From: Eledone cirrhosa
Lineage: Eukaryota
Assembly: GCA_964016885.1 (NCBI GenBank)
Contig: OZ024742.1
Coordinates: forward strand, 11,780,001 to 11,844,000
Reading direction: 5' to 3'
DNA: 64,000 nucleotides
Below the pieces are notes generated by a model. It was not told the origin of the DNA. It ran no database searches and saw only the letters and a program-made list of their open reading frames with translations. Position numbers and translations under genes: made by a program. Each line of letters opens with the position of its first letter. Positions within the stretch are counted from its first letter, which is position 1. Of the stretch, positions 4,771-62,319 are shown in pieces.

Positions 4771-5235
4771 TGTAGCGTATTTACCAGGGTTTTCTTAAAG
4801 GGAATGTAATTGATATTATCAGCCCACCTCTGCTCCTGGTGTCATCGATAACGAACAATAAATGGTAAATAAATGTACCTCTGTCCAGTTTCATTGCCCA
4901 CTCCAAACAAAAAGAAAGGATGAAAGAAAGAATAAAAGAACTCTTAGAATTCTGAAGCAGTCAATCTTGATAGTGTGAAGTTTACGGTTTCATCTACATT
5001 AACAGACAGTATCAGAAGACCCTTAGATATAAAACCATTATTCACGTACGTAGTTGGTGTATAAGTGTCAGCTTCTGTACTTGATCGTGTCATTTGTTGT
5101 TGTTCTCTTTGTTGTGGTTGCTGCTGTTGTTGTTGTTTAATCCTTAGTTATTTCTGATTCTTACCACTTACACTGGTTGGATAAAATATATGAGAGGGGG
5201 AATAATACAGTAAAGACAGATTTAACAAGATCCCA

Positions 5236-6149: not shown

Positions 6150-8036
6150 TATATAGTGTATATATATATATATATATATACTGTACATACTGTATATATA
6201 TAATGTATATACTCTATATATAATGTACATAGTGTATATGTTATGTACACATCCTCTATAGTGTATATATATATATATACTGTACATATTGTATGTATAA
6301 AATGTACATAGTGTATATATAATGTACGGAGTGTATATATAATGTAACATCCTATATAGTGTATATATATATATACTGTACATGCTGTATATATACTGTA
6401 CATGCTGTATATATATACTGTACATACTGTATATATAATATACATGATGTATATATAATGTACATAGTGTAAATATAATGTACATGCTGTATATATATTG
6501 AACATGCTATATATATACTGTATATGCTGTATATATACTATACATACTGTATATATAATGTATATGGTGTATATATATATACTGTACATGATGTATATAT
6601 ACTGTACATACTGTATATATACTGTACTTACTATATATATATACTGTACATGCTGTATATATACTGTATATGTTGTATATATACTGTACATGCTGTATAT
6701 ATAATCTACATACTATATATATACTATACATGCAGTATATATACTGTACATGCTGTATATATATATACTGTACATGCTGTATATATACTGTACATGCTGT
6801 ATATATACTTTACATGCTGTATATATACTGTAAATGCTGTATATATACCTTACATACTGTATATATACTGTACATGCTGTATATATAATCTACATACTAT
6901 ATATATACTATACATGCAGTATATATAATGTACATGGTGTATATATAATGTACATGGTGTATATATACTGTACATGTTGTATATATACTGTACATGCTGT
7001 ATATATACTGTACATGCTGTATATATTATGTACATTGTGTATATATTATGTACATTGTGTATATATACTGTACAGGCTGTATATATACTGTACATAGTGT
7101 ATATATTATGTACATGCTGTATATATACTGTACATGCTGTATATATACTGTACATACTGTATATATACTGTATATGCTGTATATATGCTGTATATATACT
7201 GTACATGCTGTATATATACTTTACATGCTGTATATATACTGTACATACTGTATATATACAGTATATGCTGTATATATGCTGTATATATACTGTACATACT
7301 GTATATATACTGTACATGCTGTATATATACTGTACATGCTGTATATATACTGTACATGCTGTATATATACTGTACATACTGTATATATACTGTATATGCT
7401 GTATATATGCTGTATATATAATGTACATACTGTATATATACTGTATATGCTGTATATATGCTGTATATATACTGTACATGCTGTATATATACTGTATATG
7501 CTGTATATATACTGTACATACTGTATATATACTGTATATGCTGTATATATGCTGTATATATACTGTACATACTGTATATATACTGTATATGCTGTATATA
7601 TGCTGTATATATACTGTACATACTGTATATATACTGTACATGCTGTATATATACTGTACATGCTGTATATATACTGTACATGCTGTATATATACTGTACA
7701 TACTGTATATATACTGTATATGCTGTATATATGCTGTATATATACTGTACATACTGTATATATACTGTATATGCTGTATATATGCTGTATATATACTGTA
7801 CATGCTGTATATATACTGTAAATGCTGTATATATACTGTACATACTGTATATATACTGTACATGCTGTATATATACTGTACATACTGTATATATACTGTA
7901 CATGCTGTATATATACAGTACATGCTGTATATATACTGTAAATGCTGTATATATACTGTACATGCTGTATATATACTGTACATGCTGTATATATACTGTA
8001 CATGCTGTATATATACTGTACATGCTGTATATATAT
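6150..8036. repeat. TA-rich minisatellite, ~20-bp unit CTGTATATATACTGTACATG
   Basis: Tandem units with 12-bp variants; more degenerate at the left end. Confidence 0.95.
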
Positions 8037-8149
8037 AATTGTTTCTACTTCAGGCACAAGGCCAGCAATTAACCCAGTGTATTACTGGTACTTTATATTA
8101 TCGACCCCGTAAGGAGGAAAGGCAAAGTTAAACTCGGCGGGATTTTAAC
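8037..8149 (-). mobile_element. SINE family A, 3' half
   Basis: aattgtttctactt...ggccagcaatt...tcgaccccgtaagga.gaaaggcaaag; stops at the B box where the next satellite begins. Confidence 0.88.
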
Positions 8150-11100: not shown

Positions 11101-14100
11101 TACATTGTCACAGTGGTGGTGGTGGTGGTGGTACACTTGTCACAGTCGTGGTGGTGGTGGTACACTTGTCACAGTGGGGTGCTGGTATACTTGTCACAGT
11201 GTTAGTGGTGGTGGTACACTTTTCACAGTGGCGGTGGTGGTACACTTTTCACAGAGGCGGTGGTGGTACACTTGTCACAGTGGTGGTGGTGGTACACTTG
11301 TCACAGTGGTGGTTGTGTTGGTACATTGTCACAGTGGTGGTGGTGGTGGTACACTTGTCACAGTCGTGGTGGTGGTGGTACACTTGTCACAGTGGGGGTG
11401 GTGCTATACTTGTCACAGTGTTAGTGGTGGTGGTACACTTTTCTCAGTGGTGGTGGTGGTACACTTGTCACGGTGCCGGTGTTACACTTGTCACTGAAGT
11501 GGTGGTGGTGGTACACCTGTCACAGTGGTGGTGGTGGCGGTGGTACACTTGTCACTGAAGTGGTGGTGGTGGTACACTTGTCACAGTGCCGGTGGTACAC
11601 TTGTCACTGAAGTGGTGGTGGTGGTACACCTGTCACAGTGGTGGTGGTGGCGGTGGTACACTTGTCACAGTGGTGGTGGTGGTACACTTGTCACAGTGCT
11701 GGTGGTGGTACACTTGTCACAATGGTGGTGGTGCTGGTACACTTGTCACAGAGGGGTGGTGGGGGTACACTTGTCACAGCGGGGGTGGTGGTACACTTGT
11801 CACAGTGGTGGTTGTGGTGGTACACTTGTCTCAGTGGTGGTGGTGGTGGTACACTTGTCACTGAAGTGGTGGTGGTGGTACACTTGTCACAGTGCCGGTG
11901 GTACACTTGTCACTGAAGTGGTGGTGGTACACCTGTCACAGTTGCGGTGGCGGTGGTACACTTGTCACAGTGGTGGTGGTGGTACACTTGTCACAGTTGT
12001 GGTGGTGGTGGTGGTACACTTGTCACAGCGGTGGTGGTGGTACACTTGTCACAGTGGTGGTGGTGGTGGTGGTACACTTGTCACAGTCGTGGTGGTGGTA
12101 CACTTGTCACAGTGGCGGTGGTGGTGGTACACTTGTCATAGTGGTGGTGGTGTTACACTTGTCACAGTGGTGGTGGTGGTACACTTGTCACAGTGGTGGT
12201 GGTGGTCGAGGTGGTACACTTGTCACAGTGGTGGTGGTGGTACACTTGTCACAGTGGTGGTGGTGGTGCTACACTTGTCACAGTGGTGGTGGTGGTGGTG
12301 GTACACTTGTCACAGTTGCGGTGGCGGTGGTACACTTGTCACAGTCGTGGTGGTGATGGTACACTTGTCACTGTAGTGGTGGTGGTGGCGGTACACTTGT
12401 CACAGTGGTGGTGGTGGTACACTTGTCACACTGGTGGTGGTGGTACACTTGTCACAGTGGCGGTGGTGGTGGTACACTTGTCACTGTGCTGGTGGTGGTA
12501 CACTTGTCACAATGGTGGTGGTGCTGGTACACTTGTCACAGAGGGGTGGTGGTGGTACACTTGTCGCAGTGGGGGTGGTGGTACACTTGTCACAGTGGTG
12601 GTTGTGGTGGTACATCGTCACAGTGGTACTGGTGGTGGTAAACTTTTCACAGTGGCGGTGGTGGTACACTTTTCACAGAGGCGGTGGTGGTACACTTGTC
12701 ACAGTGGTGGTGGTGGTGCACTTGTCACAGTGCCGGTGGTGCACTTGTCACTGAAGTGGTGGTGGTGGTACACCTGTCACAGTGGGGGTGGTGGCGGTGG
12801 TACACTTGTCACAGTGGTGGTGGTGCTACACTTGTTACAGTGGTGGTGGTGGTACACTTGTCACAGTGGTGGTGGTGGTTGTTCACTTGTCACAGTGGTG
12901 GTGGTGGTACACTTGTCACAGTGGTGGTGGTGGTGGTACACTTGTTACAGTGGTGATGGTGGTGGTGGTACACTTGTCACAGTGCTGGTGGTGGTACACT
13001 TGTCACAGTGGTGGTGGTGGTGGTACACTTGTCACAGAGGGGTGGTGGTGGTACACTTGTCACAGTGGTGGTGGTGCTACACTTGTTACGGTGGTGGTGG
13101 TGGTACACTTGTCACAGTGGTGGTGGTGGTTGTTCACTTGTCACAGTGGTGGTGGTGGTACACTTGTCACAGTGGTGGTGGTGGTGGTACACTTGTTACA
13201 GTGGTTATGGTGGTGGTGGTACACTTGTCACAGTGCTGGTGGTGGTACACTTGTCACAGTGGTGGTGGTGGTGGTACACTTGTCACAGAGGGGTGGTGGT
13301 GGTACACTTGTCACAGTGGTGGTGGTGGTACACTTGTCACAGTGGTGGTTGTGGTGGTACATTGTCACAGTGGTGGTGGTGGTGGTGGTACACTTGTCAC
13401 AGTGCTGGTGGTGGTACACTTGTCACAGTGGTGGTGGTACACTTGTCACAGAGGGGTGGTGGTGGTACACTTGTCACAGTGGTGGTGGTGATACACTTGT
13501 CACAGTGGTGGTGGTGGTGGTACACTTGTCACAGTCGTGGTGGTGGTGGTACCCTTGTCACAGTGGGGGTGGTGGTATACTTGTCACAGTGTTAGTGGTG
13601 GTGGTACACTTTTCACAGTGGCGGTGGTGGTACACTTTTCACAGAGGCGGTGGTGGTACACTTGTCACAGTGTTGGTGGTGGTACACTTGTCACAGTGCC
13701 GGTGGTACACTTGTCACTGAAGTGGTGGTGGTGGTACACCTGTCACAGTGGTGGTGGTGGCGGTGGTACACTTGTCACAGTGGTGGTGGTGGTACACTTG
13801 TCACAGTTGTGGTGGTGGTGGTGGTGGTACACTTGTCACAGCGGTGGTGGTGGTACACTTGTCACAGTGGTGGTGGTGGTGGTGGTGGTGGTGGTGGTGG
13901 TTGTACACTTGTCACAGTGGTGGTGGTGCTACACTTGTCACAGTGGCGGTGGTGGTGTTACACTTGTCACAGTGCTGGTGGTGTGGCGGTGGTACACTTG
14001 TCACAGTGGTGGTGGTGGTACACTTGTCACAGTGGTGGTGGTGGTGGTACACTTGTTACAGTGGTGGTGGTGGTACACTTGTCACAGTGGTGGTGGTGGT

Positions 14101-17100
14101 TCTACACTTGTCACATTAGTGGTGGTGGTGGTGGTGGTTCACTTATCACAGTGGTGGTGGTGGTACACTTGTCACAATGGTGGTGGTGGTGGTGGTACGC
14201 TTGTCATATTGGTGGTGGTGGTGGTGGTACACTTGTCGCAGTGGTGGTGGTGGTACACTTGTCACAGTGGTGGAAGGTGATACACTTGTCACAGTGGTGG
14301 TGGTGGTACACTTGTCGCAGTGGTGGTGGTGGTACACTTGTCACAGTGGTGGTGGTGGTACACTTGTCGCAGTGGTGGTGGTGGTACACTTGTCACAGTT
14401 GTGGTGGTGGTGGTATACTTGTCACAGTGGTGGTGGTGGTGGTACACTTGTCACAGTGGTGGTGGTGGTACACTTGTTACAGTGGTGGTGGTGGTACACT
14501 TGTCACAGTGGTGGTGGTGGTTGTTCACTTGTCACAGTGGTGGTGGTGGTACACTTGTCACAGTGGTGGTGGTGGTGGTACACTTGTTACAGTGGTGATG
14601 GTGGTGGTACACTTGTCACAGTGCTGGTGGTGGTACACTTGTCACAGAGGGGTGGTGGTGGTACACTTGTCACAGTGGTGGTGGTGCTACACTTGTTACT
14701 GTGGTGGTGGTGGTACACTTGTCACAGTGGTGGTGGTGGTTGTTCACTTGTCACAGTGGTGGTGGTGGTACACTTGTCACAGTGGTGGTGGTGGTGGTAC
14801 ACTTGTAACATTGGTGATGGTGGTGGTGGTACACTTGTCACAGTGGTGGTGGTGGTGGTACACTTGTCACAGAGGGGTGGTGGTGGTACACTTGTCACAG
14901 TGGTGGTGGTGGTACACTTGTCACAGTGGTGGTGGTGGTTGTTCACTTGTCACAGTGGTACTGGTGGTGGTAAACTTTTCACAGTGGCGGTGGTGGTACA
15001 CTTTTCACAGAGGCGGTGGTGGTACACTTGTCACAGTGGTGGTGGTGGTGCACTTGTCACAGTGCCGGTGGTGCACTTGTCACTGAAGTGGTGGTGGTGG
15101 TACACCTGTCACAGTGGGGTGGTGGCGGTGGTACACTTGTCACAGTGGTGGTGGTGCTACACTTGTTACAGTGGTGGTGGTGGTACACTTGTCACAGTGG
15201 TGGTGGTGGTTGTTCACTTGTCACAGTGGTGGTGGTGGTACACTTGTCACAGTGGTGGTGGTGGTGGTACACTTGTTACAGTGGTGATGGTGGTGGTACA
15301 CTTGTCACAGTGCTGGTGGTGGTACACTTGTCACAGTGGTGGTGGTGGTGGTACACTTGTCACAGAGGGGTGGTGGTGGTACACTTGTCACAGTGGTGGT
15401 GGTGCTACACTTGTTACGGTGGTGGTGGTGGTACACTTGTCACAGTGGTGGTGGTGGTGGTTGTTCACTTGTCACAGTGGTGGTGGTGGTACACTTGTCA
15501 CAGTGGTGGTGGTGGTGGTACACTTGTTACAGTGGTGATGGTGGTGGTGGTACACTTGTCACAGTGCTGGTGGTGGTACACTTGTCACAGTGGTGGTGGT
15601 GGTGGTACACTTGTCACAGAGGGGTGGTGGTGGTACACTTGTCACAGTGGTGGTGGTGGTACACTTGTCACAGTGGTGGTTGTGGTGGTACATTGTCACA
15701 GTGGTGGTGGTGGTGGTGGTACACTTGTCACAGTGCTGGTGGTGGTACACTTGTCACAGTGGTGGTGGTACACTTGTCACAGAGGGGTGGTGGTGGTACA
15801 CTTGTCACAGTGGTGGTGGTGATACACTTGTCACAGTGGTGGTGGTGGTGGTACACTTGTCACAGTCGTGGTGGTGGTGGTACCCTTGTCACAGTGGGGG
15901 TGGTGGTATACTTGTCACAGTGTTAGTGGTGGTGGTACACTTTTCACAGTGGCGGTGGTGGTACACTTTTCACAGAGGCGGTGGTGGCACACTTGTCACA
16001 GTGTTGGTGGTGGTACACTTGTCACAGTGCCGGTGGTACACTTGTCACTGAAGTGGTGGTGGTGGTACACCTGTCACAGTGGTGGTGGTGGCGGTGGTAC
16101 ACTTGTCACAGTGGTGGTGGTGGTACACTTGTCACAGTTGTGGTGGTGGTGGTGGTGGTACACTTGTCACAGCGGTGGTGGTGGTACACTTGTCACAGTG
16201 GTGGTGGTGGTGGTGGTGGTGGTGGTGGTGGTGGTGGTGGTGGTGGTGGTGGTGGTGGTGGTTGTACACTTGTCACAGTGGTGGTGGTGCTACACTTGTC
16301 ACAGTGGCGGTGGTGGTGTTACACTTGTCACAGTGCTGGTGGTGTGGCGGTGGTACACTTGTCACAGTGGTGGTGGTGGTACACTTGTCACAGTGGTGGT
16401 GGTGGTGGTACACTTGTTACAGTGGTGGTGGTGGTACACTTGTCACAGTGGTGGTGGTGGTTCTACACTTGTCACATTAGTGGTGGTGGTGGTGGTGGTT
16501 CACTTATCACAGTGGTGGTGGTGGTACACTTGTCACAATGGTGGTGGTGGTGGTGGTGGTACGCTTGTCATATTGGTGGTGGTGGTGGTGGTACACTTGT
16601 CGCAGTGGTGGTGGTGGTACACTTGTCACACTAGTGGAAGGTGATACACTTGTCACAGTGGTGGTGGTGGTACACTTGTCGCAGTGGTGGTGGTGGTACA
16701 CTTGTCACAGTGGTGGTGGTGGCACACTTGTCGCAGTGGTGGTGGTGGTACACTTGTCACAGTTGTGGTGGTGGTGGTATACTTGTCACAGTGGTGGTGG
16801 TGGTGGTACACTTGTCACAGTGGTGGTGGTGGTACACTTGTCACAGTGGTGGTGGTGGTGGTACACTTGTCACAGAGGGGTGGTGGTGGTACACTTGTCA
16901 CAGTGGTGGTGGTGCTACACTTGTTACTGTGGTGGTGGTGGTACACTTGTCACAGTGGTGGTGGTGGTTGTTCACTTGTCACAGTGGTGGTGGTGGTACA
17001 CTTGTCACAGTGGTGGTGGTGGTGGTACACTTGTAACATTGGTGATGGTGGTGGTGGTACACTTGTCACAGTGGTGGTGGTGGTGGTACACTTGTCACAG

Positions 17101-18811
17101 AGGGGTGGTGGTGGTACACTTGTCACAGTGGTGGTGGTGGTACACTTGTCACAGTGGTGGTACACTTGTCACAGAGGGGTGGTGGTGGTACACTTGTCAC
17201 AGTGGTGGTGGTACACTTGTCACAGAGGGGTGGTGGTGGTACACTTGTCACAGTGGTGGTGGTGGTACACTTGTCACAGTGGTGGTGGTGGTGGTACACT
17301 TGTCACAGTCGTGGTGGTGGTGGTACCCTTGTCACAGTGGGGGTGGTGGTATACTTGTCACAGTGTTAGTGTTGGTGGTACACTTTTCACAGTGGCGGTG
17401 GTGGTACACTTTTCACAGAGGCGGTGGTGGTACACTTGTCACAGTGGTGGTGGTGGTACACTTGTCACAGTGCCGGTGGTACACTTGTCACTGACGTGGT
17501 GGTGGTGGTGGCGGTGGTACACTTGTCACAGTGGTGGTGGTGGTACACTTGTCACAGTTGTGGTGGTGGTGGTGGTACACTTGTCACAGCGGTGGTGGTG
17601 GTACACTTGTCACAGCGGTGGTGGTGGTACACTTGTCACAGTGGTGGTGGTGGTGGTGGTTGTACACTTGTCACAGTGGTGGTGGTGCTACACTTGTCAC
17701 AGTGGCGGTGGTGGTGTTACACTTGTCACAGTGGTGGTGGTGTGGCGGTGGTACACTTGTCACAGTGGTGGTGGTGGTACACTTGTCACAGTTGTTGTGG
17801 TGGTGGTGGTGGTACACTTGTCACAGCGGTGGTGGTGGTACACTTGTCACAGTGGTGGTGGTGGTGGTGGTTGTACACTTGTCACAGTGGTGGTGGTGCT
17901 ACACTTGTCACAGTGGCGGTGGTGGTGTTACACTTGTCACAGTGGTGGTGGTGTGGCGGTGGTACACTTGTCACAGTGGTGGTGGTGGTACACTTGTCAC
18001 AGTGGTGGTGGTGGTGGTACACTTGTTACAGTGGTGGTGGTGGTACACTTGTCACCGTGGTGGTGGTGGTACACTTGTCACAGTGGTGGTGGTGGTTCTA
18101 CACTTGTCACATTAGTGGTGGTGGTGGTGGTGGTTCACTTGTCGCAATGGTGGTGGTGGTGGTGGTACACTTATCACAGTGGTGGTGGTGGTACACTTGT
18201 CACAATGATGGTGGTGGTGGTACGCTTGTCATATTGGTGGTGGTGGTGGTGGTACACTTGTCGCAGTGGTGGTGGTGGTACACTTGTCACAGTGGTGGAA
18301 GGTGATACACTTGTCACAGTGGTGGTGGTGGTACACTTGTCGCAGTGGTGGTGGTGGTACACTTGTCACAGTGGTGGTGGTGGTACACTTGTTGCAGTGG
18401 TGGTGGTGGTACACTTGTCACAGTTGTGGTGGTGGTGGTATACTTGTCACAGTGGTGGTGGTGGTGCTACACTTGTCACAGTGGTGGTGGTGGTACACTT
18501 GTCACAGTGGTGGTGGTGGTACTACACTTGTCACCGTGGTGGTGGTGGTACACTTGTCACAGTGGTGGTGGTGGTACACTTGTCATAGTGGTGGTTGTGC
18601 TGGTGGTGGTGCACTTGTCACAGTGGTGGTGGTGGTGGTACACTTGTCATAGTGGTGGTGTTGGTGGTGGTGGTACACTTGTCACAGTGGTGGTGGTGGT
18701 ACATTTGTCATAGTGGTGGTGGTGGTGGTGGTGGTACTCTTGTCACAGTGGTGGTGGTACACTTGTCACAGTGGTGGTGGTGGTGGTACACTTGTCACAG
18801 TGGTGGTGGTT
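8149..18811. repeat. 10.7 kb compound minisatellite: ACACTTGTCACAGT core + variable (GGT)n
   Basis: Several hundred units, mostly 23-32 bp; all ORFs here (HLSQWWW / YTCHSGGG / TLVTVVV) are its three frames. Confidence 0.98.
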
Positions 18812-19097: not shown

Positions 19098-19372
19098 ATT
19101 ATGTGTACAAGTATATGTGTTTGTGACTATCAATTTATGTATGCTATGTGCATGTATGTGTGTGTGTATGTAAATATATATATATATGGGGATGTGTATA
19201 TTATGTGTGTAAGTTTGCATGTTTTTATAACTATGAATGTATGTATAACATGTACGTGTGTGTGTAAATATATATATATATATATATAGAAAGATTTGAA
19301 TGGATACAGTTTAGTTGAAAGGAATTTATTGACACGTGTTTCTATAACAGTTACATAACCTGAAAACAGCTG

Positions 19373-19442
19373 CTATCTACAAAGTATTATGCAGACAATC
19401 AATATTTCAATGTTATTATTTACTGTCATTTCATCAGAATAA
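19373..19442 (-). ncRNA. Candidate type I hammerhead ribozyme in PLE pLTR (left arm)
   Basis: Mirror copy of 23759-23828. Confidence 0.55.
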
Positions 19443-19992
19443 TATTACTGAGGACCTGTTTGGTTTTTATAGAGAATATTAGGAGAGAGGGGTGAAGTTG
19501 TTAGAAGAATAGTTGAGGGAGTGGTTTTTTGATAGCAGTGAGAATTTTTGGTGGCAGTGAGTAATTAGATTCCCATCTGTTGTTTTGACATCTTTATAGA
19601 ATATATTATTGGTTATTTTTCTAAATCTATAGAGGGATTAGAGATAGTAAAGATATGCGTGGTTGGTTTTGTGTTTGCACTTAATTAACATTCAGACTTA
19701 AATTTTTTCTTTCCAGTGTACGTATCCTTTCACCCACGCATTCTCACACAAACATATTTGCACCCCTCTACAAAATATATATACTCACATTCACATAGTA
19801 ACATGTTCATACTTACATACATATACACATGCATACATATATATATACACACATGTATTCATGTACATACATACGCGTTCACGTGTGTACATTTTCATAC
19901 TCAACTTATCTTTATATACACACGTATAGACACACACATATATACATACATACTCTAGTCTATGTGTATATATATACATATACATATACATC

Positions 19993-20066
<74 letters not shown>

Positions 20067-20356
20067 CATATATATATATAAGCACTTTAATACATGAATA
20101 CACTTACATCTAACTATACACATCAAACATATATATATTTACTTATTTATATACATTTTCACATATATATACATACTTATGGTCGCTTTTAGACACATTC
20201 ATTATCGCATTTTTGCACCTATTCTCATCAGCATATCTATCCATTATTAGTGTGGTAATTTAAGGTTATTAATATACATATATATGTTGAGAAGAAATTG
20301 TTTTTATATTTTTCTAACTAGATTGAGGTTTATATAGTTGGGGGGATGTCCCTCTT

Positions 20357-22480
20357 TTATGTAATATTCGGCTTGTAGTGGGAAAAAAGGGTTTTAGTTC
20401 GGTGACGGCAAAATAATGTTCGTTCAATTCTGTTATTCAGCAATTTCTTCTTGTGTGTGATTATGTAATAAATCTCAAGATTACACAATTTTGCAGAAAT
20501 TTTGGCTCCTGGAAAAGCTTTGGGTTTTAGCTAATTTCTCCCATTTTAGGGTAAAATCTTGATCGCTATCCCTGAGCGTCCAAGCTTTTTCTGCTAAAGT
20601 TGTTACATTTCTTTGGCTCTGGTGTTTTATTGAGTAAGAATGCCTATATAATCGAGATTTAAACGATGTTGCCGTTGATCCCACGTAATACCACTCGTTG
20701 CCTCCGGATTTAATGGTACACTTATAAATAATTTTTTTTTCCAGGCAGTTATTGCCGAGGGGGCAGTTGTCAGGATAGGTGCAGTTACAGTTGTGTACGT
20801 TGGGTTTTCTCTGGAGTAGTATTGCGGACGAACTTAGGTGTGGTTTATTTATGTTCTGTAGTGTATTGTCTACTGTTTTTTTTGTGTTATTTGTACTTAA
20901 GTTTTTAGTGTTTTCGTTTAACCTTCTAGTATTGATCTTTTTTATGTGTTGTTCAAGGTTTAACGCTGTAGAGTATGACAGTCTTATAGTGGTAGGGTTT
21001 AGGATTTTGTGGTATTTGTGTGATGTAGGAAAATGTCTCTTAATTATTTTAAAGAAGAGTACTGGTATATTTGTACTAATAGAACTATTGTATTCGGGGT
21101 TATACTATGAGTACTCTTTGCATCGCTTTCTATTAGTTTTGTTTGTTGGTTTACTGGTGTGCATACTATGGTAGTAAGTGTGGTTTGGTGTTGTGTTATT
21201 ATATCTACCTATGTGGGATTTATTTTGGGTGTTTTGATTGTTCCCATCTATATACTCTATTTTGTTGAGGTGGCCTGCTTTACTAAGGGCGTTATCGTAG
21301 TATTCGGCGTGTTCCTTAAATACTTGTATGTTAGAAGATAGACCCGAGATTCTAGGGGAAATATTTTTAGGGATAGATTTAATTATAGAGATGGGGTGGT
21401 TAGACCCAATATTTACGTATTTGAGATTTTCATTCAATTTATGAAACGGTTTAATCAGACCAGAGTTTAAATTGAGTGTGACATCCAGGAAGTTAACTAC
21501 TTTAAGGTTGTATTCATATGTTATAGTTAGTCCTATTTCGAGTAGTAGTTTTCTTATATCTTTGTGTAGTTTTTCTAGTTTTTGGTTATTTAGGTTTTTA
21601 ACTAGGAGGAGAACATCGTCGCGGTATATTCCGCCGTGGAGATTGCTGAATTTTTCCTGGAGTCTAAAAGCGATAAATAACCCCACAATATCAGTTATTT
21701 CCGCCGAATCATTAGAGCCCATTGTTATGTCAAAGTTAGAGGGTCTATCTTTACGTACCCAATAACTGTTCTCAAATTTGACTATAGTTTTCCTAGCTTC
21801 TAATATAATCTTAATTTCATCGTTTGTAAGGTCAGAGTTATCCTTAGAAAACCTAATGGCTCTATTCAAAGTTTCAGGTGATATCGATGAGTAATATTCA
21901 TCGATATCAAACTGGATAAACTTAGATTTATTCTTATTGCTAATGCTATTAAACCATCTTATTGCTTCTTGGGTCTTCCCCCAGAGTTTAATGTTAACCT
22001 TAGCCTTAATTTGGGAGATAATTCTATCTAAGATATATTTGCTTATTTTACCTATTTAGAGGGGCAGATTTATTTTACCTATTTAGAGGGGCAGATTAAT
22101 CTAATTTTAGGATCATTATCAAAGTTTACCTTATGGTCATTAAGATTGAAGGTGGGTACCGCCGGTAAGAGTGGTCCTGTCCTATCTTCGATTCCGAGAT
22201 TTTTCACTATTTCGCATGCCTCATCATTGATGTGCTTAAGAGTTACTTCATTCGTTTTTCTATATTTTTTATGTAATTCTTTTTGAATGAAGTTGTTGTA
22301 TGTAGTGCAATCCATAGTATACAGGTTTGATGTTTTGTCCGCTTTTACTACAATTCCTTTGGTGTTTTTAAGGTCGTCCAGTAGTTTTTTTATATCTTTC
22401 TGTAATTTGTTGTTGGTGTTACGTCCTTTGAATTTAATTTTAAGGATTAAGTTCATAAGGTCCTGCTCAAATGCATCTAA
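20357..22480 (-). pseudogene. PLE reverse transcriptase + GIY-YIG endonuclease ORF, 5'-truncated and disrupted
   Basis: Motifs in order: ADKTSN, RLICPSK, FIQFDIDEYYSSIS, FDITMGSNDSAE, GIYRDD, VNFLDVTLNL, SNHP, (W>TAG)YNPEY, CNCTYPDNCPLGNNCL, IIYKC..YYVGST..FKSRLYRH, CKLC..E..LLNNRIE..CRH. Lesions: frameshift with a 27-bp tandem duplication at ~22044-22097, TAG at 21105-21107, +1 A near 20490. Confidence 0.92.
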
Positions 22481-22904
22481 TCTTGAGATTTATTACATAA
22501 TCACACACAAGAAGAAATTGCTGAATAACAGAATTGAACGAACATTATTTTGCCGTCACCGAACTAAAACCCTTTTTTCCCACTACAAGCCGAATATTAC
22601 ATAAAAGAGGGACACCCCCCCCCCCCCCCAACTATATAAACCTCAATCTAGTTAGAAAAATATAAAAACAATTTCTTCTCAACATATATATGTATATTAA
22701 TAACCTCAAATTACCACACTAATAATGGAAAGATATGCTGATGAGAATAGGTGCAAAAATGCGATAATGAATGTGTCTAAAAGCGACCATAAGTATGTAT
22801 ATATATGTGAAAATGTATATAAATAAGTAAATATATATATATGTTTGATGTGTATAGTTAGATGTAAGTGTATTCATGTATTAAAGTGCTTATATATATA
22901 TATG

Positions 22905-22946
<42 letters not shown>

Positions 22947-22947
<1 letters not shown>

Positions 22948-23137
22948 GTTATTCCGGGTTGAATCGGAGGTAACCACAGTAAGTAAGGTACTCAATACAT
23001 AGCAGAGTATAACAGTTTTAATATAGATGAGATTCTACAGGACTAGAACTGTTTCATTCATTAGAAATCATCAGGAATCAATGATGATTTCTAATGAATG
23101 AAACAGTTCTAGTCCTGTAGAATCTCATCTATATTAA

Positions 23138-23140
<3 letters not shown>
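22947..23140 (-). mobile_element. ~195 bp HHR-bearing mini-element nested in the (TA)n tract of the PLE right arm
   Basis: Absent from the equivalent TA tract of the left arm (~20000-20062); contains ~58-bp inverted arms around 23074-23081 plus a unique tail; homologous to 61450-61618. Confidence 0.85.
23031..23079 (-). ncRNA. Type I hammerhead ribozyme
   Basis: Minus strand reads GAUUC-CUGAUGA-uUUCuaauGAAu-GAAA-CAGuucuagucCUG-UA/GAAUC: intact core, stems I (5 bp), II and III present, GUA cleavage triplet. Confidence 0.85.
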
Positions 23141-23208
<68 letters not shown>

Positions 23209-23758
23209 GATGTATATGTATATGTATATATATACACATAGACTAGAGTATGTATGTATATATGTGTGTGTCTATACGTGTGTATATAAAGATAAGTTGA
23301 GTATGAAAATGTACACACGTGAACGCGTATGTATGTACATGAATACATGTGTGTATATATATATGTATGCATGTGTATATGTATGTAAGTATGAACATGT
23401 TACTATGTGAATGTGAGTATATATATTTTGTAGAGGGGTGCAAATATGTTTGTGTGAGAATGCGTGGGTGAAAGGATACGTACACTGGAAAGAAAAAATT
23501 TAAGTCTGAATGTTAATTAAGTGCAAACACAAAACCAACCACGCATATCTTTACTATCTCTAATCCCTCTATAGATTTAGAAAAATAACCAATAATATAT
23601 TCTATAAAGATGTCAAAACAACAGATGGGAATCTAATTACTCACTGCCACCAAAAATTCTCACTGCTATCAAAAAACCACTCCCTCAACTATTCTTCTAA
23701 CAACTTCACCCCTCTCTCCTAATATTCTCTATAAAAACCAAACAGCTCCTCAGTAATA

Positions 23759-23828
23759 TTATTCTGATGAAATGACAGTAAATAATAACATTGAAATATT
23801 GATTGTCTGCATAATACTTTGTAGATAG
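23759..23828 (+). ncRNA. Candidate type I hammerhead ribozyme in PLE pLTR (right arm)
   Basis: CTGATGA (23764-70), stem II AATG/CATT, GAAA (23793-96); a possible GTA site at 23821-23 with wobble-rich stem I TTATT/GATAG and outer helix aaacagct/agctgttt. Stem III is weak. Confidence 0.55.
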
Positions 23829-24066
23829 CAGCTGTTTTCAGGTTATGTAACTGTTATAGAAACACGTGTCAATAAATTCCTTTCAACTAAACTATATCCA
23901 TTCAAATCTTTCTATTTTTCTCCGGATTACTTTTGAAATTTCAACTGGAACCGTCGAGCAAACTCTACGTGAGCTGTCAATCTACTGTCTAATATTTATA
24001 TTACAACACAACGGAAAATACTGTATATATATATATATATATATTTACATACACATATATATATAT

Positions 24067-24443: not shown

Positions 24444-24565
24444 TGAAACAGCAAGAGCTCAGCCGTCGGGTCCCGACACTTTCTAGCTTAACCAATCTCT
24501 ACTACCCCAAGTATCGAGTACCCGGTTGAGTAATGGTCTAACTACTTTTAAACTGTTTGTATCCT
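24442..24565 (+). mobile_element. Truncated member of the palindromic HHR-derived family
   Basis: Starts right after (TA)n: GAAAcagcaagagctcagccgTCgggtcc, then ctctactaccccaagtatcgagtac, homologous to 47108-47200. Confidence 0.65.
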
Positions 24566-28887: not shown

Positions 28888-29848
28888 TCATCATCTTCAT
28901 CATCATCATCATTTTACGTCCACTTTTTCCTGCTTGCAAGGGTGCGACGGGTCCTATTCAGCACAGCATCTCTCCACCCGTCACGGTACTTCGTCATCTC
29001 CTCCGTGAGCTTCAGCGATCTGAGGTCTGCTCTCACCACCTCCACCCATGTTTTTCGTGGTCTTCCTCTACTGCGTCTTCCTTCTACTGGGATTTCTTGG
29101 CACTTCTTTGCCCAGTGGTCATCCTCCATGTGCATCACATGTCCATACCATCTCAGTCTTCTCTCTTGCACACCACAACTAATACCTCTTATACACAGTT
29201 TCTTTCTCAACTCATCTATGCTTGGTCGTTCACGCACATTGACATTGCACATCCAACAGAGCATGCTTGCTTCATTTCTCTCCAGCCGTCACATATCCTC
29301 TGCAGTTGCTTCCCATGTCTCACTACCATGCAGCATCGCGCATCTCACATAAGCATCATATAACCGTCCTTTCGTACACAAGGAGAAACCCTTCTTTGTC
29401 AACAGAGGAAGCAGCTCGCTAAACTTCTTCCAACCCGGTCTTATTCTAGATACTATGGCCTCGGAACCCCCCCCCCCCCCCCGCCCCATGCTAATCTGAT
29501 CACCTAGGTACCGGAAGCTATCAACCACTTCTATAGAACTCATCTGCGTTGGAAAAATGCGTCTATTACTGCGATTACTACTGCCAACTTTCCCTGTACA
29601 TCCACTGCATACATAGTTTTCCCTACCTGTTAGTTTGCCTGCTATCCCACTACATCTCATGTGTACCCAAGATCTGCATTGCGTACATTTTATGGAATTT
29701 ATGCCAGTTTCTTTTCTACATATCGAACATGGACATTTCCCTTATGGAATCAGAGTATTGTCCTCTCTTCTACTTATCAACACTTTTGTCTTAGCTTTGT
29801 TCACTCTCAGTCCTCTTGATTCCAACTGCTGTTTCCATAGCCAGAATT
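28888..29848 (-). mobile_element. 5'-truncated RTE-clade LINE (3' end) with (ATG)n tail
   Basis: Peptides GLRVNKAKTKVL, Cys/His finger CSIC..CTQC..WVH.RC..CSGC, EVVDSFRYLGDQIS, MLHGSETW, RRLRWYGHV, GRRSRGRPRKTW; frameshifted; ends ggacgtaaa(atg)n. Confidence 0.92.
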
Positions 29849-32399: not shown

Positions 32400-33310
32400 G
32401 AACAGACTTTAGTCCTGTGGTGGACTGATGTCCTGCCGAGGAGAAAGTCTTGTACTCTCAGTCACTTAACACCAATGACATTAAGACAGACTTTAACACT
32501 GTGATGGACTGGTGTCCTGTCCAGGAGGAAGTCTTGTACTCTCAGTCACTTCACACCAATGACATTAAGACAGACTTTAACACTATGATGGATGGTGTCC
32601 TGTCCAGGGGAAGTCTTGTACTCTCAGTCACTTAACACCAATGACATTAAGACAGACATTAACACTGTGATGGACTGGTATCCTGTCCAGGAGGAAGTAT
32701 TGTCCTCTCAGTCACTTAACACCAATGACAATAAGACAGACTATAACACTGTGATGGACTGGTGACCTGTCCAGGGGGAAGTCTTGTACTCTCAGTCACT
32801 TAACACCAATGACATTAAGACAGACTTTAACACTGTGATGGACTGGTGTCAAGTCCATGGGGAAGTCTTGTACTCTCAGTCACTTAACACCAATGACATT
32901 AAGACAGACTTTAACATTGTGATGGCCTGGTGTCCTGCCCAGGGGGAAGTCTTGTACTCTCAGTCACTTAACACCAATGACATTAAGACAGACTTTAACA
33001 CTGTGATGGACTGGTGTCCTGTCCAGGGTGAAGTCTTGTACTCTCAGTCACTTAACACCAATGACATTAAGACAGACGTTAACACTGTGATGGACTGGTG
33101 TCCTGTCCAGGAGGAAGCCTTGTACTCTCAGACACTTAACACCAATGACATTAAGACAGACTTTAATACTATGATGGACTGGTGTCCTCTCCAGGAGGAA
33201 GTCTTGTACTCTCAGTCACTTAAGACCAATGATATTAAGAGAGACTTTAACACTGTGATGGACTGGTGTCCTGTCCAGGAGGAAGTCTTGTACTCTCAGT
33301 CACTTAACAC
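32400..33310. repeat. 84-bp minisatellite (~10.5 units)
   Basis: Unit gtcttgtactctcagtcacttaacaccaatgacattaagacagactttaacactgtgatggactggtgtcctgtccaggrggaa; inverted degenerate units at ~32160-32315. Confidence 0.95.
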
Positions 33311-33682
33311 TGTAGCGGCCCCTTACGGCTATGACTCAGCACGTATAAGACTGACGTTCCTTTGCGACGGGAGCGACTCCCAGCGGTAGATTCATGTAGT
33401 AAGCGGAGTTGCGTCCGCTGGGGACTATATAGTCGAGGACAGTCAAGCCATAAGACACACTCTACTCCTGAACTTCGACGGGACAAGAACACCTGAGCCC
33501 TTGTCAAGAGATGACTCCTGTTTCACTTCCTTCGTACCCAAGAAGAAGAACACCGGCAGCCTAAAGAAACACTTGAACCTTACACACTGCAGTCTGGGAG
33601 TTGTGACCACCTGCACATCAACATGTGGTAACAATTCTTTATAACAATTTATTTGACTTCTGTGAAGTAAAACCATGTTACA
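33311..33682 (+). mobile_element. Probable solo LTR (372 bp)
   Basis: GC-richer island starting TGTAGC and ending GTTACA (TG...CA, short inverted termini), TATA-like tatatag near 33426, AGTAAA near the end; flanks ACAC/ACTC (imperfect 4-bp TSD). Confidence 0.6.
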
Positions 33683-46724: not shown

Positions 46725-46771
<47 letters not shown>

Positions 46772-46797
46772 TTCAGCCGTCGGGGTCCTACTCGTTC

Positions 46798-46833
<36 letters not shown>

Positions 46834-46865
46834 GCATATATATATATATATATGTGTGTATGTAC

Positions 46866-46959
<94 letters not shown>

Positions 46960-47021
46960 GTACATACACACATATATATATATATATATGCATTTATATA
47001 TATATATATAAATATATATAA

Positions 47022-47230
47022 AGGAACGAGTAGGACCCCGACGGCTGAATTCAAGCCGTTTCGACGGCTAATTCTGGACTAATTCTGGAAGTCCAGAACT
47101 AGCCGTCGAAACGGCTTGAGCTCAACCGTCGGGGTCCTACTCGTTCCTATTACCCACTCTACTACCCTAAGTATTGAGTACTTTGGTGCGTTATGGTCCA
47201 TCTGGTTCCTTACCACATTTCCTTGGTTAT
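47022..47230 (+). mobile_element. Palindromic mini-element (~59-bp arms + ~80-bp tail) between (TA)n tracts
   Basis: aggaacgagtaggaccccgacggc...gccgtcgaaacggc...gtcggggtcctactcgttcct; homologue in reverse at 62063-62264. Confidence 0.85.
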
Positions 47231-47260
47231 ATATCTATATATATATATATATATATATAT

Positions 47261-47490
47261 AAGTTTTCTGGAGTATAATATTCAATGATATTAAATAAAT
47301 GGAAACTATATTTATAAAACCATATTTATTTTATTAAATTTATTCTATTAATGGTTGGGTTTATAAATATAGTTTCCATTTATTTAATATCATTGAATAT
47401 TATACTCCAGAAAACTTGTCGAGTGCTCTGAATCAGTTATAAACACCTATATTTGTTGAATTACCAACAAATTGAATATCCCTTTTGCTT
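47261..47490 (+). mobile_element. AT-rich fold-back mini-element (56-bp perfect arms + ~70-bp tail) between (TA)n tracts
   Basis: 47261-47316 is the reverse complement of 47362-47417. Confidence 0.7.
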
Positions 47491-48802: not shown

Positions 48803-49292
48803 CATACGTATACATATGTATATATAGATATGTGTGCGTATGTGTATGTTTGTGTGAGTGTGTGTATAGTGTGTGTGCGAGTGTGTATACACAAACTTTA
48901 GAATTGAATATATGCTACACTTATCTGGCGATGACTGAGTTTATCCTCTGTTTCGGAATAATAACATATAGTGCTTAATAAAATATTTTATTGCGGTTTG
49001 TCTTTGTTTTACATTTTGGTATTAAATAAAATTGAAATTCTGAATTAGTTTTCTTTTATTCATTTAAATAATGTTTCTCATTTCGGAATTGTAAATTAAA
49101 TTCAGAACGAACGGGAACCAGTAAGAAATAAATAGACATGGAAAAGTGGCGAAAAATGTTATTCAATTCAGTAATATTAAGATTAATGGACGTAAGATAT
49201 GGCTAGGATATATGTTTATTGTATAACATTTTACGGGTATATATTCACTGATTGTTTTCTCGGAACAAAGACTTGTACCTAATGACTGACTG

Positions 49293-52200
49293 GAGGTAGT
49301 GTTGTGGTGGTGTGGTGGTGTGGTGGCGGTGTGGTGGTGTGGTGGTGGTGTGGTGGTGGTGTGGTGGTGTTGTGGTGTAGTGTGGTGGTGCAGTGGTGTT
49401 GTGGTGTGGTGTGGTGTGGTGGTGTTGTAGTGTGGTGGTGGTGTGGTGGTGTGGTGATGTGATGATGTGGTGATGTGGTGGTGTGGTGGTGTGGTGATGT
49501 GATGGTGTGGTGGTGTGGTGGTGTGGTGGTGTGGTGGTGTGGTGGTGTGGTGGTGTGGTGGTGTGATGATGTGGTGGTGTGGTGGTGTGGTGGTGTGGTG
49601 GTGTGGTGGTGTGGTGGTGTGGTGGTGGTGGTGTGGTGGTGTGATGGTGTGGTGGTGTGGTGATGTGATGATGTGGTGGTGTGGTGATGTGGTGGTGTGG
49701 TGATGTGGTGGTGTGGTGGTGTGGTGGTGTGGTGGTGTGGTGGTGTGGTGGTGTGATGATGTGGTGGTGTGATGGTGTGGTGGTGTGGTGGTGTGGTGGT
49801 GTGATGGTGTGGTGGTGTGGTGGTGTGGTGGTGTGGTGGTGTGGTGGTGTGGTGGTGTGGTGATGTGTTGGTGTGGTGGTGTGGTGGTGTGGTGGTGTGG
49901 TGATGTGGTGGTGTGGTGGTGTGGTGGTGTGGTGGTGTGGTGGTGTGATGGTGTGGTGGTGTGGTGGTGTGGTGGTGTGGTGGTGTGGTGGTGTGGTGGT
50001 GGTGGTGTGGTGATGTGGTGGTGTGGTGGTGTGGTGGTGGTGGTGTGGTGGTGTGGTGGTGTGGTGGTGTGGTGGTGTGATGATGTGGTGGTGTGGTGGT
50101 GTGGTGGTGTGATGGTATGGTGGTGTGGTGGTGTGGTGGTGTGGTGATGTGATGGTGTGGTGGTGTGGTGGTGTGGTGGTGTGGTGATGTGGTGGTGTGA
50201 TGGTGTGGTGGTGTGATGATGTGGTGGTGTGATGGTGTGGTGGTGGTGGTGTGGTGGTGTGGTGATGTGGTGGTGTGGTGGTGTGGTGGTGTGGTGGTGT
50301 GGTGGTGCGGTGGTGTGGTGGTGTTGTGGTGTGGTGGTGTGGTGGTGTGGTGGTGTGGTGGTGTGATGATGTGGTGGTGTGATGGTGTGGTGGTGTGGTG
50401 GTGTGGTGGTGTGGTGTTGTGGTGGTGTGGTGGTGTGGTGATGTGGTGGTGTGGTGGTATGGTGGTGTGGTGGTGTGGTGGTGTGATGGTGTGGTGGTGT
50501 GGTGGTGTGGTGGTGTGGTGGTGTGGTGGTGTGGTGATGTGATGGTGTGGTGGTGTGGTGGTGTGGTGGTGTGGTGGTGTGGTGGTGGTGGTGTGGTGGT
50601 GTGGTGGTGTGGTGGTGTGGTGGTGTGGTGGTGTGGTGGTGTGGTGATGTGGTGGTGTGGTGGTGTGGTGGTGTGGTGGTGTGGTGGTGTGATGGTGTGG
50701 TGGTGTGGTGGTGTGGTGGTGTGGTGGTGTGGTGGTGTGGTGGTGTGGTGATGTGATATGTGGTGGTGTGGTGGTGTGGTGGTGTGGTGATGTGGTGGTA
50801 TGGTGGTGTGGTGGTGTGGTGGTGTGGTGGTGTGGTGGTGTGGTGGTGTGGTGGTGTGGTGGTGTGATGGTGTGGTGGTGTGGTGGTGTGGTGGTGTGGT
50901 GGTGTGGTGGTGTGGTGGTGTGGTGGATGTGGATGGTGTGGTGTGAGTGGTGGTGTGTGGTGTGTGGTGGTGTGGTGGTGTGTGGTGGTGTGTGGTGGTG
51001 TGAGTGGTGTGGTGGTGTGGTGGTGTGGTGGTGTGGTGTGTGGTGGTTGTGGTGGTGTGGTGGTGTGGTGGTGTGGTGGTGTGTGGGTGTGGTGGTGTGT
51101 GTGTGGTGGGGTGGTGTGGTGGTGTGGTGGTGTGGTGGTGTGGTGGTGATGGTGGTGTGGTGTGTGGTGGTGTGGTGTGGTGGTGTGGTGTTGTGGTGGT
51201 GTGGTGGTGTGGTGGTGTGGTGGTGTGGTGTGTGGTGGTGTGGTGGTGTGGTGGTGTGGTGGTGTGGTGGTGTGGTGGTGGTGTGGATGAGTGTGGTGTG
51301 TGTGTGAGGTGTGGTGGTGTGGTGGTGTGTGTGATGGTGGTGTGGTGGTGGTGGTTGGTGGTGTGTGTGGTGGTGGTGTGGTGGTGTGGTGGTGTGGTGG
51401 TGTGGTGGTGTGGTGGTGGTGGTGGTGTGGTGTGGTGTGTGGTGTGTGGTGGTGTGGTGTGTGGTGGTGTGGTGGTGTGGTGGTGTGGTGGTGTGGTGGT
51501 GTGGTGGTGTGGTGGTGTGATGATGTGGTGGTGTGGTGGTGTGTGGTGTGATGGTGTGATGGTGTGGTGGTGTGGTGGTGTGGTGGTGTGATGGTGTGAT
51601 GGTGTGGTGGTGTGGTGGTGTGGTGGTGTGGTGGTGTGGTGGTGTGGTGGTGTGGTGGTGTGGTGATGTGATGGTGTGGTGGTGTGGTGGTGTGGTGGTG
51701 TGGTGGTGTGGTGGTGTGGTGGTGTGGTGGTGTGGTGGTGTGGTGGTGTGTTGGTGTGGTGGTGTGGTGGTGTGGTGGTGTGATGATGTGGTGGTGTGGT
51801 GATGTGGTGGTGTGGTGGTGTGGTGGTGTGGTGGTGTGGTGGTGTGATGATGTGGTGGTGTGGTGGTGTGGTGGTGTGGTCGTGTGGTGGTGTGGTGGTG
51901 TGGTGGTGTGGTGGTGTGGTGGTGTGGTGGTGTGGTGGTGTGGTGGTGTGGTGGTGTGGTGGTGTGATGATGTGGTGGTGTGGTGGTGTGGTGGTGTGGT
52001 GGTGTGGTGGTGTGGTGATGTGATGATGTGGTGGTGTTGTGGTGTGGTGGTGTGGTGGTGTGGTGGTGTGGTGGTGTGATGGTGTGGTGGTGTGATGGTG
52101 TGGTGATGTGGTGGTGTGATGGTGTGGTGGTGTGGTGGTGTGGTGGTGTGGTGGTGTGGTGGTGTGATGGTGTGGTGGTGTGGTGGTGTGGTGGTGTGGT

Positions 52201-61983: not shown

Positions 61984-62062
61984 CACACACACACACACAC
62001 ATACACACACACATATATATTTGTGTGTGTGTGTATGTATATATATATATATATATATATAT

Positions 62063-62263
62063 AACGAAGGAAGTGTGGTAAGGAACCAGGGGGACCATAA
62101 CACACCAGAGTACTCAATACTTTGGGTAGTAAAGAGGGTAATAGGAAAATGTTCAAGACCCCCGACGGCAGAGCTCAAGCCGTTTCGACGGCTATTTCTG
62201 AGTCCAGAAATAGCCGTCAAAATGGCTTGAGCTCTGCCGTCAGGGTCTTGCACATTTTCCTGT

Positions 62264-62264
<1 letters not shown>
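62063..62264 (-). mobile_element. Second full copy of the palindromic mini-element, between (TA)n tracts
   Basis: Hairpin ~62140-62264 plus tail gtattgagtactctggtg.gttatggtcc..ctggttccttaccac as at 47171-47218. Confidence 0.85.

Positions 62265-62319
<55 letters not shown>

What the first reader, a model, noticed from the sequence alone, without database searches (positions are those of the whole stretch)
47022..47230. Hammerhead apparently converted into a near-perfect palindrome
Seen: the right arm reads stem-GAAA-CGG(cttgagctcaa)CCG-TC/GGGGTCC, exactly the 3' half of a type I HHR (stem II, GAAA, stem III, GUC site, stem I). Where CTGANGA should lie between GGACCCC and stem II there is instead the complement of GAAA-stem III-TC. 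The diverged copy at 62063-62264 has the same layout with both arms changed together; 24442 starts near the GAAA. Inference: snap-back synthesis at stem II or quasi-palindrome correction killed the ribozyme, yet the form recurs. It might still be cleavable in trans and would yield long dsRNA. I know of no description of this.
Basis: partly seen in the sequence, partly recalled or inferred. Interest (0 to 1): 0.72.

Follow-up and report, generated by a model that had tools for sequence, protein, structure and literature searches.

The report
Mirror-image stubs of a Penelope retroelement
This hairpin is real and is one of thousands of short mirror-image stubs of a Penelope-type jumping gene whose longer copies carry the whole hammerhead-ribozyme motif; it likely formed when two short DNA copies ran off a fixed end of the element's RNA (probably its transcription start) and were joined head to head, rather than by a ribozyme being rewritten in place.

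Summary
The palindrome and the half-hammerhead are as described. It is the 3' stub of a very abundant Penelope-like retroelement with Hydra-clade motifs (740-aa RT + GIY-YIG ORF, L063), inserted in (TA)n; 4,829 exact palindromic junctions lie in this genome (0 control). Longer copies keep the missing half of the ribozyme, with core UUGANAA or CUGANAA; older relatives have CUGANGA. Nothing was converted in place: each insertion joins one tailless and one 80-nt-tailed copy head to head, junctions differ copy to copy, and the tailless arm is often the longer, which simple snap-back cannot give. Inverted copy plus one-sided tail is published for these elements. Not found in the papers read: 65 of 75 arms reaching loop II stop at a sharp wall there, 0 of 18 long copies on their second pass, at an initiator-like AGTC kept across subfamilies. 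Likely mechanism: two target-primed cDNAs run off the RNA 5' end and prime each other. That the end is a transcription start is untested (no RNA run). This scan reached the same reading earlier on other DNA of this genome and another.

The parts
47022..47082 (-). Left arm: tailless 5'-truncated copy of the element end, from RT start site 1 (CCTAT, at about 47020) to position -62
   Evidence: same end in 50 of 101 arms sampled
47083..47089 (.). Copy-specific junction insert (TTCTGGA; with its neighbours a direct repeat of the last bases of the left arm)
   Evidence: 57 of 94 junctions carry an insert, 70 distinct strings
47090..47150 (+). Right arm: 5'-truncated copy from position -60 (A of AGTC, the common stop) to site 1
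47090..47093 (+). AGTC, core of the initiator-like TTAGTC/TCAGTC at which most arms end; inferred RNA 5' end
   Evidence: end distribution; motif kept in old relatives; function inferred
47100..47135 (+). 3' half of a type I hammerhead: stem II 3' strand, GAAA, stem III with palindromic loop, GTC site (predicted cut after 47130), stem I 3' strand
   Evidence: 5' half present in long copies
47151..47230 (+). 80-nt tail between RT start site 1 and site 2 (GGTTAT); in full-length copies it runs on into the 5' UTR and ORF
46800..47021 (.). (TA)n-rich target, left flank
47231..47260 (.). (TA)n target, right flank
46768..46799 (+). Secondary inverted duplication of 32 nt of the left arm (carries the left arm's private changes), mirror centred in the TA run
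   Evidence: 100% over 32 nt; 256 of 286 self-complementary
62058..62265 (-). Second stub of a sister subfamily: tailed arm 62058-62200, tailless arm 62201-62265, ends -56 and -60
24445..24538 (+). Older relative, single arm starting at -42

Best explanation
The palindrome is a short insertion of a Penelope-like retroelement made of one tailless and one tailed copy of the element's end lying head to head in (TA)n, and it likely arose when both cut target strands primed reverse transcription at two fixed internal RNA sites 80 nt apart, both cDNAs ran off a fixed RNA 5' end inside hammerhead loop II (probably the element's transcription start), and their 3' ends were then joined so that each would template the other's second strand. 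Shown: parent element, two ends, one-of-each pairing, sharp stop, copy-specific joints, shared subfamily variants. Inferred: priming from both strands (by analogy with the Anolis element in vitro), run-off, mutual priming, start site. The CUGANGA half is missing simply because it lies about 45 nt upstream of the stop. Odds by step: Penelope stub 0.97; two cDNAs rather than snap-back 0.85; stop is an RNA 5' end 0.75; that end is a transcription start 0.6.
For: Parent: L063 holds inverted tailed arm + truncated pLTR + 740-aa ORF + 3' pLTR ending at site 1. Ends: 50 tailless, 50 tailed, 1 cut in the tail, of 101 arms picked only by a 23-mer. Pairing: 61 tailless+tailed, 1 tailless+tailless, 0 tailed+tailed of 82 records (20 solo, long or partner not classed); 90 of 94 junctions have exactly one tailed side. 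Against snap-back: tailless arm longer by 5 nt or more in 19 of 61 pairs (tailed longer in 12, within 4 nt in 30); in 4 pairs the tailed arm starts past site 1 and shares nothing with its partner. Wall: 63 of 101 arms end at -55..-66, 2 at -67..-78, 0 at -79..-106, 10 longer, 26 shorter; 0 of 18 ORF-bearing copies stop there on second passage (Fisher p 1.5e-12 on the table 66:10 vs 0:18); 5 solo arms with no partner also end at -55..-66. AGTC kept at that place in 7 of 9 old relatives. Summed contig depth of a public run rises about 20-40 fold across -60 and falls about 300 fold past site 2 (qualitative). Arms share subfamily variants (17:2, 33:1, 32:3 concordant:discordant; 1.45 vs 3.15 mismatches per 44 nt, 0 of 10,000 permutations, 64 copies). 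Two copies jump from the wall into the ORF in the same polarity (L205, L211). Literature: both strands cut and extended, two RT start sites define the tail (PMC11167929); internal promoter in the pLTR (PMC2377424).
Against: No RNA evidence for the start site could be obtained. If capped RNAs start at -60/-64, some full-length copies should end there too; none of 18 does, so long copies need another template (tandem read-through, circle or strand transfer), which is not shown. Ends are spread over -55..-66 with two peaks (-59/-60 and -62..-64), not one base. The extra-C signal expected from cap copying (15 of 32 vs 4 of 82 by tally) is confounded by partner-derived letters. No downstream promoter element is evident by eye. 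In D. virilis the start site lies well upstream of the ribozyme, unlike here. How one RNA serves two primers is not explained.
Confidence: 0.68

Rival explanations
1. Same two-cDNA insertion, but the fixed end is a processed RNA end (nuclease or small-RNA-guided cut in loop II) or a protein-imposed pause, not a transcription start.
For: The wall lies in the loop of a predicted stem; ends spread over about 10 nt; no RNA data.
Against: A pause written in the sequence should also stop long cDNAs on second passage: 0 of 18. The AGTC word is kept while the loop upstream diverges. A 3' splice site after TTTAG/TTCAG is unlikely because most arms include the AG and bases upstream of it.
Confidence: 0.18
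2. One reading: one cDNA stalls at stem II, snaps back and copies itself (or a quasi-palindrome is corrected), replacing the CUGANGA half.
For: Both arms share variants; breakpoints fall next to stem II; 23 of 94 joints have microhomology; tailed arm is the longer in 12 of 61 pairs.
Against: Tailless arm longer in 19 of 61, no overlap at all in 4; tailless end is also the end of long copies with short tailed partners (L063, L081); zero-loop blunt joints with both arms ending at the same base; left GGACCCC is not the parent stem-I strand.
Confidence: 0.07
3. A self-propagating palindromic non-autonomous element (MITE- or SINE-like master).
For: Tens of thousands of near-identical short copies with fixed outer ends.
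Against: Junctions are not inherited: 70 distinct strings in 94, all different among the 27 palindromic top hits; arms are concordant, not fixed for arm-specific differences; ends are asymmetric and belong to an RT-encoding parent.
Confidence: 0.03
4. Long inverted insertions that later collapsed by central deletion, or an assembly artefact.
For: Long inverted pairs exist; palindromes are unstable (general knowledge).
Against: Empty gap at -79..-106 and sharp upstream wall; solo arms and short arms with long partners end at the same place; joints of the same kind appear in independent short-read contigs, though with sides under 30 nt.
Confidence: 0.04

Closest known systems
Hydra clade of C-terminal EN+ Penelope-like elements (Craig et al. 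2021, PMC8557442; passages, section 11, supplement search)
   Same: RT + C-terminal GIY-YIG; DKT; no GxKF/Y; no CCHH; CxCX5C linker; CxxC and CxH around E and N; hammerhead in pLTR; (TA)n target; partial tandem, adjacent inverted 5'-truncated copy, tail on one side.
   Different: Unit 3.57 kb (clade generally under 3 kb); RWR for RWK; tail 80 nt, not 30-40; most insertions are 200-nt stubs with both arms ending at one place, which the passages read do not describe; core U3-A8 or C3-A8.
Poseidon PAc of Anolis carolinensis (Frangieh et al. 2024, PMC11167929; parts 1-2 of 4)
   Same: Both strands cut and extended; two internal RT start sites bound the tail; AT-rich target; hammerhead next to ORF start and dispensable for insertion in vitro.
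   Different: Other clade; the paper does not treat joining of the two cDNAs or a fixed 5' stop.
Adineta vaga Penelope elements (Arkhipova et al. 2013, PMC3846280; parts 1-3 of 5)
   Same: Inverted pLTR overlapping the direct one, optional tail, short palindromes at pLTR 5' ends, initiator-like motif in the pLTR.
   Different: Very few copies; ordinary target-site duplications; no mass of ORF-less stubs.
Minimal hammerheads of metazoan PLEs (Cervera and de la Pena 2014, PMC4209133; parts 1-2 of 4)
   Same: Type I, long helix II, palindromic loop III, U3-A8 covariant, pairs on opposite strands 100-700 bp apart.
   Different: Here most copies are cut inside loop II and hold only the substrate half; helix III is longer.
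L1 twin priming
   Same: Two target strands prime cDNAs that are joined by microhomology, giving a 5' inversion.
   Different: In L1 the inverted part does not duplicate the direct part and the second site is not fixed; here both sites are fixed and the arms overlap.

Membership tests
EN+ Penelope-like element | Single ORF with RT and C-terminal GIY-YIG nuclease in the parent | tested here: met
   740 aa from ATG at L063:5139; YxDD and VIYQ..AYIG motifs; Atlas neighbours with GIY-YIG/RVT_1 at 0.96-0.97; Pfam scan gave 0 families
EN+ Penelope-like element | pLTR partial tandem with adjacent inverted 5'-truncated copy | tested here: met
   L063, L062; many of 30 loci
EN+ Penelope-like element | Tail at one end only | tested here: met
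   90 of 94 junctions with one tailed side, 0 with two; length 80 nt against 30-40 in the papers
EN+ Penelope-like element | Target-site duplication | not testable with these tools
   Insertion in (TA)n hides it
Hydra clade | DKT motif; GxKF/Y not conserved; CCHH absent | tested here: met
   VHSDKTGNL at aa 117; no GxK[FY]; one Cys only inside the GIY-YIG core
Hydra clade | CxCX5C linker; CxxC and CxH around E and N | tested here: met
   CNCPDGSIC in L064 (C to F in L062, L063); CNLC, CKH
Hydra clade | RWK motif | tested here: inconclusive
   RWR at aa 37
Hydra clade | Insertion into (TA)n | tested here: met
Hydra clade | Generally shorter than 3 kb | tested here: not met
   Unit 3,573 bp in L063; the paper says 'generally'
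Hydra clade | Placement in the RT tree | not tested
   No reference proteins held
Type I hammerhead ribozyme (window copy) | CUGANGA box and stem I/II 5' strands | tested here: not met
   Absent from 47022-47230
Type I hammerhead ribozyme (parent family) | Both core boxes with stems I-III and a 3-8 pair | tested here: inconclusive
   First 100 of 2,995 arms, hand tally: 61 U3-A8, 37 C3-A8, 2 U3-G8, 0 C3-G8; older relatives C3-G8; consensus folding of the decayed set did not recover the fold
Type I hammerhead ribozyme (parent family) | Self-cleavage | not testable with these tools
   Needs an assay; junction survey near the cut site was confounded
MITE | Fixed internal sequence between terminal inverted repeats, DNA-transposase partner | tested here: not met
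   Variable centre, one-sided tail, RT parent
Non-LTR retrozyme | Tandem units each with a complete hammerhead | tested here: not met
   Single inverted pair with half a ribozyme; definition from 10.64898/2026.07.22.740005 part 1

The most novel reading that the evidence does not exclude
Penelope integration is a two-primer reaction in which two run-off cDNAs, like retroviral strong-stop DNA, prime each other's second strand. In this family the promoter sits inside hammerhead loop II, so the ordinary mRNA holds only the substrate half of the ribozyme and yields 200-bp palindromic stubs by the tens of thousands, while only read-through, circular or strand-transferred templates give full-length copies; the lineage kept spreading while its core went from C3-G8 to U3-A8 and to a mismatched C3-A8.
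Probability: 0.45. Interest if true: 0.65.

Novelty: new variant of a known kind. Interest (0 to 1): 0.45.

Why it matters
How Penelope-like elements make their inverted repeats, one-sided tail and second strand is named as open in PMC8557442 and PMC11167929. A family in which most insertions are two-arm stubs with fixed ends is a genome-wide record of that reaction and gives sharp predictions (RNA 5' end at -60/-64, two cDNAs of about 60 and 140 nt) for an existing in vitro system. It also means tens of thousands of near-perfect 60-bp hairpins that would give dsRNA if transcribed, and that repeat libraries may misfile as MITEs. The general layout is known, so the gain is mechanistic, not a new kind of element.

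Tried and rejected
Rfam scan of the window: 0 hits. Repeat finder swamped by microsatellites. Pfam on the ORF: 0 families. RNA runs: no RNA holder listed, so nothing on expression or start site; the four runs laid are contigs of unknown kind from one study and cannot show starts. Arm-specific A/G difference seen first suggested a palindromic master; rejected as query bias after the unbiased test. Splice-acceptor reading of TTTAG/TTCAG rejected (arms include the AG and upstream bases). Cap-copied extra C: 15 of 32 vs 4 of 82 by tally (the test was run with 4 of 80, p 7e-7), confounded, not counted as proof. Pile-up of ends at the ribozyme cut site: 379 junctions, first 100 inspected, no clear excess separable from microhomology. 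RNAalifold on 23 decayed hammerhead segments gave no useful consensus; single folds did not give the hammerhead topology except L097. First concordance script had an offset error, redone. The old-family query was contaminated by another repeat; only its alignment and listed palindromes were used. Sequence look-up in earlier findings returned nothing. Seven paper searches found no account of a fixed 5' stop or mutual priming in PLEs; subscription papers are not covered, and the supplements of the bioRxiv preprint were not seen.

Full report
Observation. The right arm 47090-47150 holds stem II 3' strand, GAAA, CGG-cttgagctcaa-CCG, TC/GGGGTCC; the left arm mirrors it with 4 mismatches in 59 nt; an 80-nt unpaired tail follows; both sides are (TA)n. 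The fold is -120.5 kcal/mol, z -14.3. Relatives in the window lie at 62058-62265 (same layout) and 24445-24538 (single arm). Rfam has no hit at gathering score.

Abundance. The window lies in a 3.0-Gb assembly. A search with right arm plus tail gave 1,834 candidates; 27 of the 30 best loci have an inverted left arm starting at the same base, each with a different centre. Exact patterns count 4,829 palindromic junctions, 15,674 arms with one 23-mer and 2,995 arms long enough to hold the ribozyme's 5' core, all with 0 control matches. In 74 stretches of 10 kb taken at round coordinates (739.6 kb) there were 26 hit records, 12 of them short head-to-head pairs, which scales to roughly 50,000 stubs (Poisson range about 25,000-85,000; my estimate).

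Parent. Long copies lead to a full element: L063 has an inverted tailed arm (4439-4811), a truncated pLTR, tail, 5' UTR, a 740-aa ORF, a 1.2-kb 3' region and a second hammerhead ending at CCTAT. The protein has RT and C-terminal GIY-YIG motifs, DKT, CxCX5C (in L064), CxxC and CxH, and lacks CCHH and GxKF/Y, the marks given for the Hydra clade in PMC8557442 section 11; RWK reads RWR, the unit is 3.57 kb and no tree was built. Pfam found nothing; Atlas neighbours carry GIY-YIG, RVT_1 or HTH_animal in part of their members.

The ribozyme. Long copies read ACCCC-(T/C)TGANAA-G..CGGCTA-loop-TAGCCGTC-GAAA. Of the first 100 of 2,995 matches I tallied 61 U3-A8, 37 C3-A8, 2 U3-G8 and 0 C3-G8. U3-A8 is a natural covariant in Schistosoma PLEs (PMC4209133). 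In loci held, 38 of 42 cores linked to the window copy's subfamily marker are C3-A8 (a biased set), a mismatch predicted to be inactive since the 3-8 pair is needed (PMC11167929). Older relatives have CTGATGA/CTGACGA with GAAA: 9 complete matches, 0 control, and 9 more core matches of which 2 are more distant. So the hammerhead is real, but the left GGACCCC of the window copy is not its stem-I strand.

How the palindrome is built. With the last T of CCTAT as 0, arms end either at 0 (site 1) or at +80 (site 2). Of 101 arms picked only by a 23-mer, 50 are tailless, 50 tailed, 1 cut in the tail. Of 82 insertion records 61 pair tailless with tailed, 1 tailless with tailless, none tailed with tailed; 20 were solo, long or had a partner whose end was not classed. 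Of 94 junctions (a set that needs both arms to reach -55 and includes query-picked loci) 90 have one tailed side, 70 strings are distinct, 57 carry inserts, 23 microhomology, 14 are blunt. Both arms share subfamily variants. The tailless arm is longer by 5 nt or more in 19 of 61 pairs, the tailed arm in 12, and in 4 the tailed arm starts past site 1 and overlaps nothing. A strand copied back from the tailed cDNA cannot be longer than it, so snap-back fails as the general rule; inherited palindromes fail because centres are not inherited. This matches the Anolis element, which cuts and extends both strands and starts at two RNA sites that bound the tail (PMC11167929), and the published inverted-copy-plus-tail layout (PMC8557442; PMC3846280).

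The wall. 5' ends of the 101 arms: 26 at -54 or shorter, 63 at -55..-66, 2 at -67..-78, 0 at -79..-106, 10 longer. Five solo arms end there too, and so do stubs of older subfamilies about 83% identical. None of 18 ORF-bearing copies that pass the same sequence a second time stops there, so the stop is not a pause written in the sequence. The place reads TCATTTAGTC or TCAGTC, like an animal initiator (consensus recalled), and AGTC is kept in 7 of 9 old relatives while the loop upstream differs. After -63 all 28 untemplated bases are A. Two copies jump from the wall into the ORF in the same polarity (L205, L211). Contig depth of a public run steps up across -60 and down past site 2 (not a copy number). 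D. virilis Penelope has an internal promoter in its pLTR (PMC2377424), though there the start lies upstream of the ribozyme.

Mechanism. Likely: the protein binds near the ORF start, both nicked (TA)n strands prime at sites 1 and 2 (each ending in UAU), both cDNAs run off the RNA 5' end after about 60 and 140 nt, gain a few bases, anneal by microhomology and template each other. The CUGANGA half is absent because it lies upstream of that end. Against: no RNA data; no full-length copy ends at the wall, so long copies need tandem, circular or strand-transfer templates; cap evidence is confounded; a processed end remains possible.

Novelty and score. The element class and the inverted layout are known; seven searches and the parts of six papers read gave no account of the fixed stop or of mutual priming. 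I stated this reading before the first look-up; earlier AI notes reach the same view on other DNA of this genome and of another, which is agreement, not evidence. Earlier notes call the host a cephalopod; I did not test that. New variant of a known kind; interest 0.45.

Noticed in passing
window 47261-47489: The neighbouring AT-rich 157-bp palindrome with a one-sided extension is a stub of a second, unrelated hammerhead-bearing repeat; its longer copies keep an intact CTGATGA core and also have two 3' ends in (TA)n. Its 5' ends are more spread (several clusters), with no single wall.
   Followed up: partly
window 19286-23915: A decayed Penelope-like ORF of the same protein type (minus strand, 20484-22055) between perfect 775-nt inverted arms, with a CTGATGA motif at 23764.
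   Followed up: partly
window 46768-47053: Local inverted duplication centred in the TA run copies 32 nt of the left arm after it had mutated; similar TA-centred mirrors flank several other loci.
   Followed up: partly
window about 45220, minus strand: CTGATGA-GGACGTAC..GTACATCC-GAAA, a minimal hammerhead of the AT-rich type.
   Followed up: no
L190, L197-L200, L205, L211, L212: Copies in which part of the ORF is joined directly to the element end at -104, about -19 (the predicted cut site), -63, -60 and about -30; possible template jumps or small circles.
   Followed up: partly
junctions L009, L014, L015, L304, L312, window 47083-47089: Inserts that repeat the last 10-17 nt of an arm up to three times; either RT re-copying the template end (telomerase-like) or repair-polymerase templated insertion; not separable in a palindrome.
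   Followed up: partly
G000 matches: Hammerhead core shifted from C3-G8 (old) to U3-A8 and C3-A8 within one spreading lineage.
   Followed up: partly
window about 8000-18000 and 49200-52000: GC-rich, strongly skewed tandem repeats (8-nt period at 49.2-52 kb).
   Followed up: no
window 29292-29741 minus; 32766-33386 plus: A LINE-like RT fragment and a 38-codon tandem repeat open frame.
   Followed up: no
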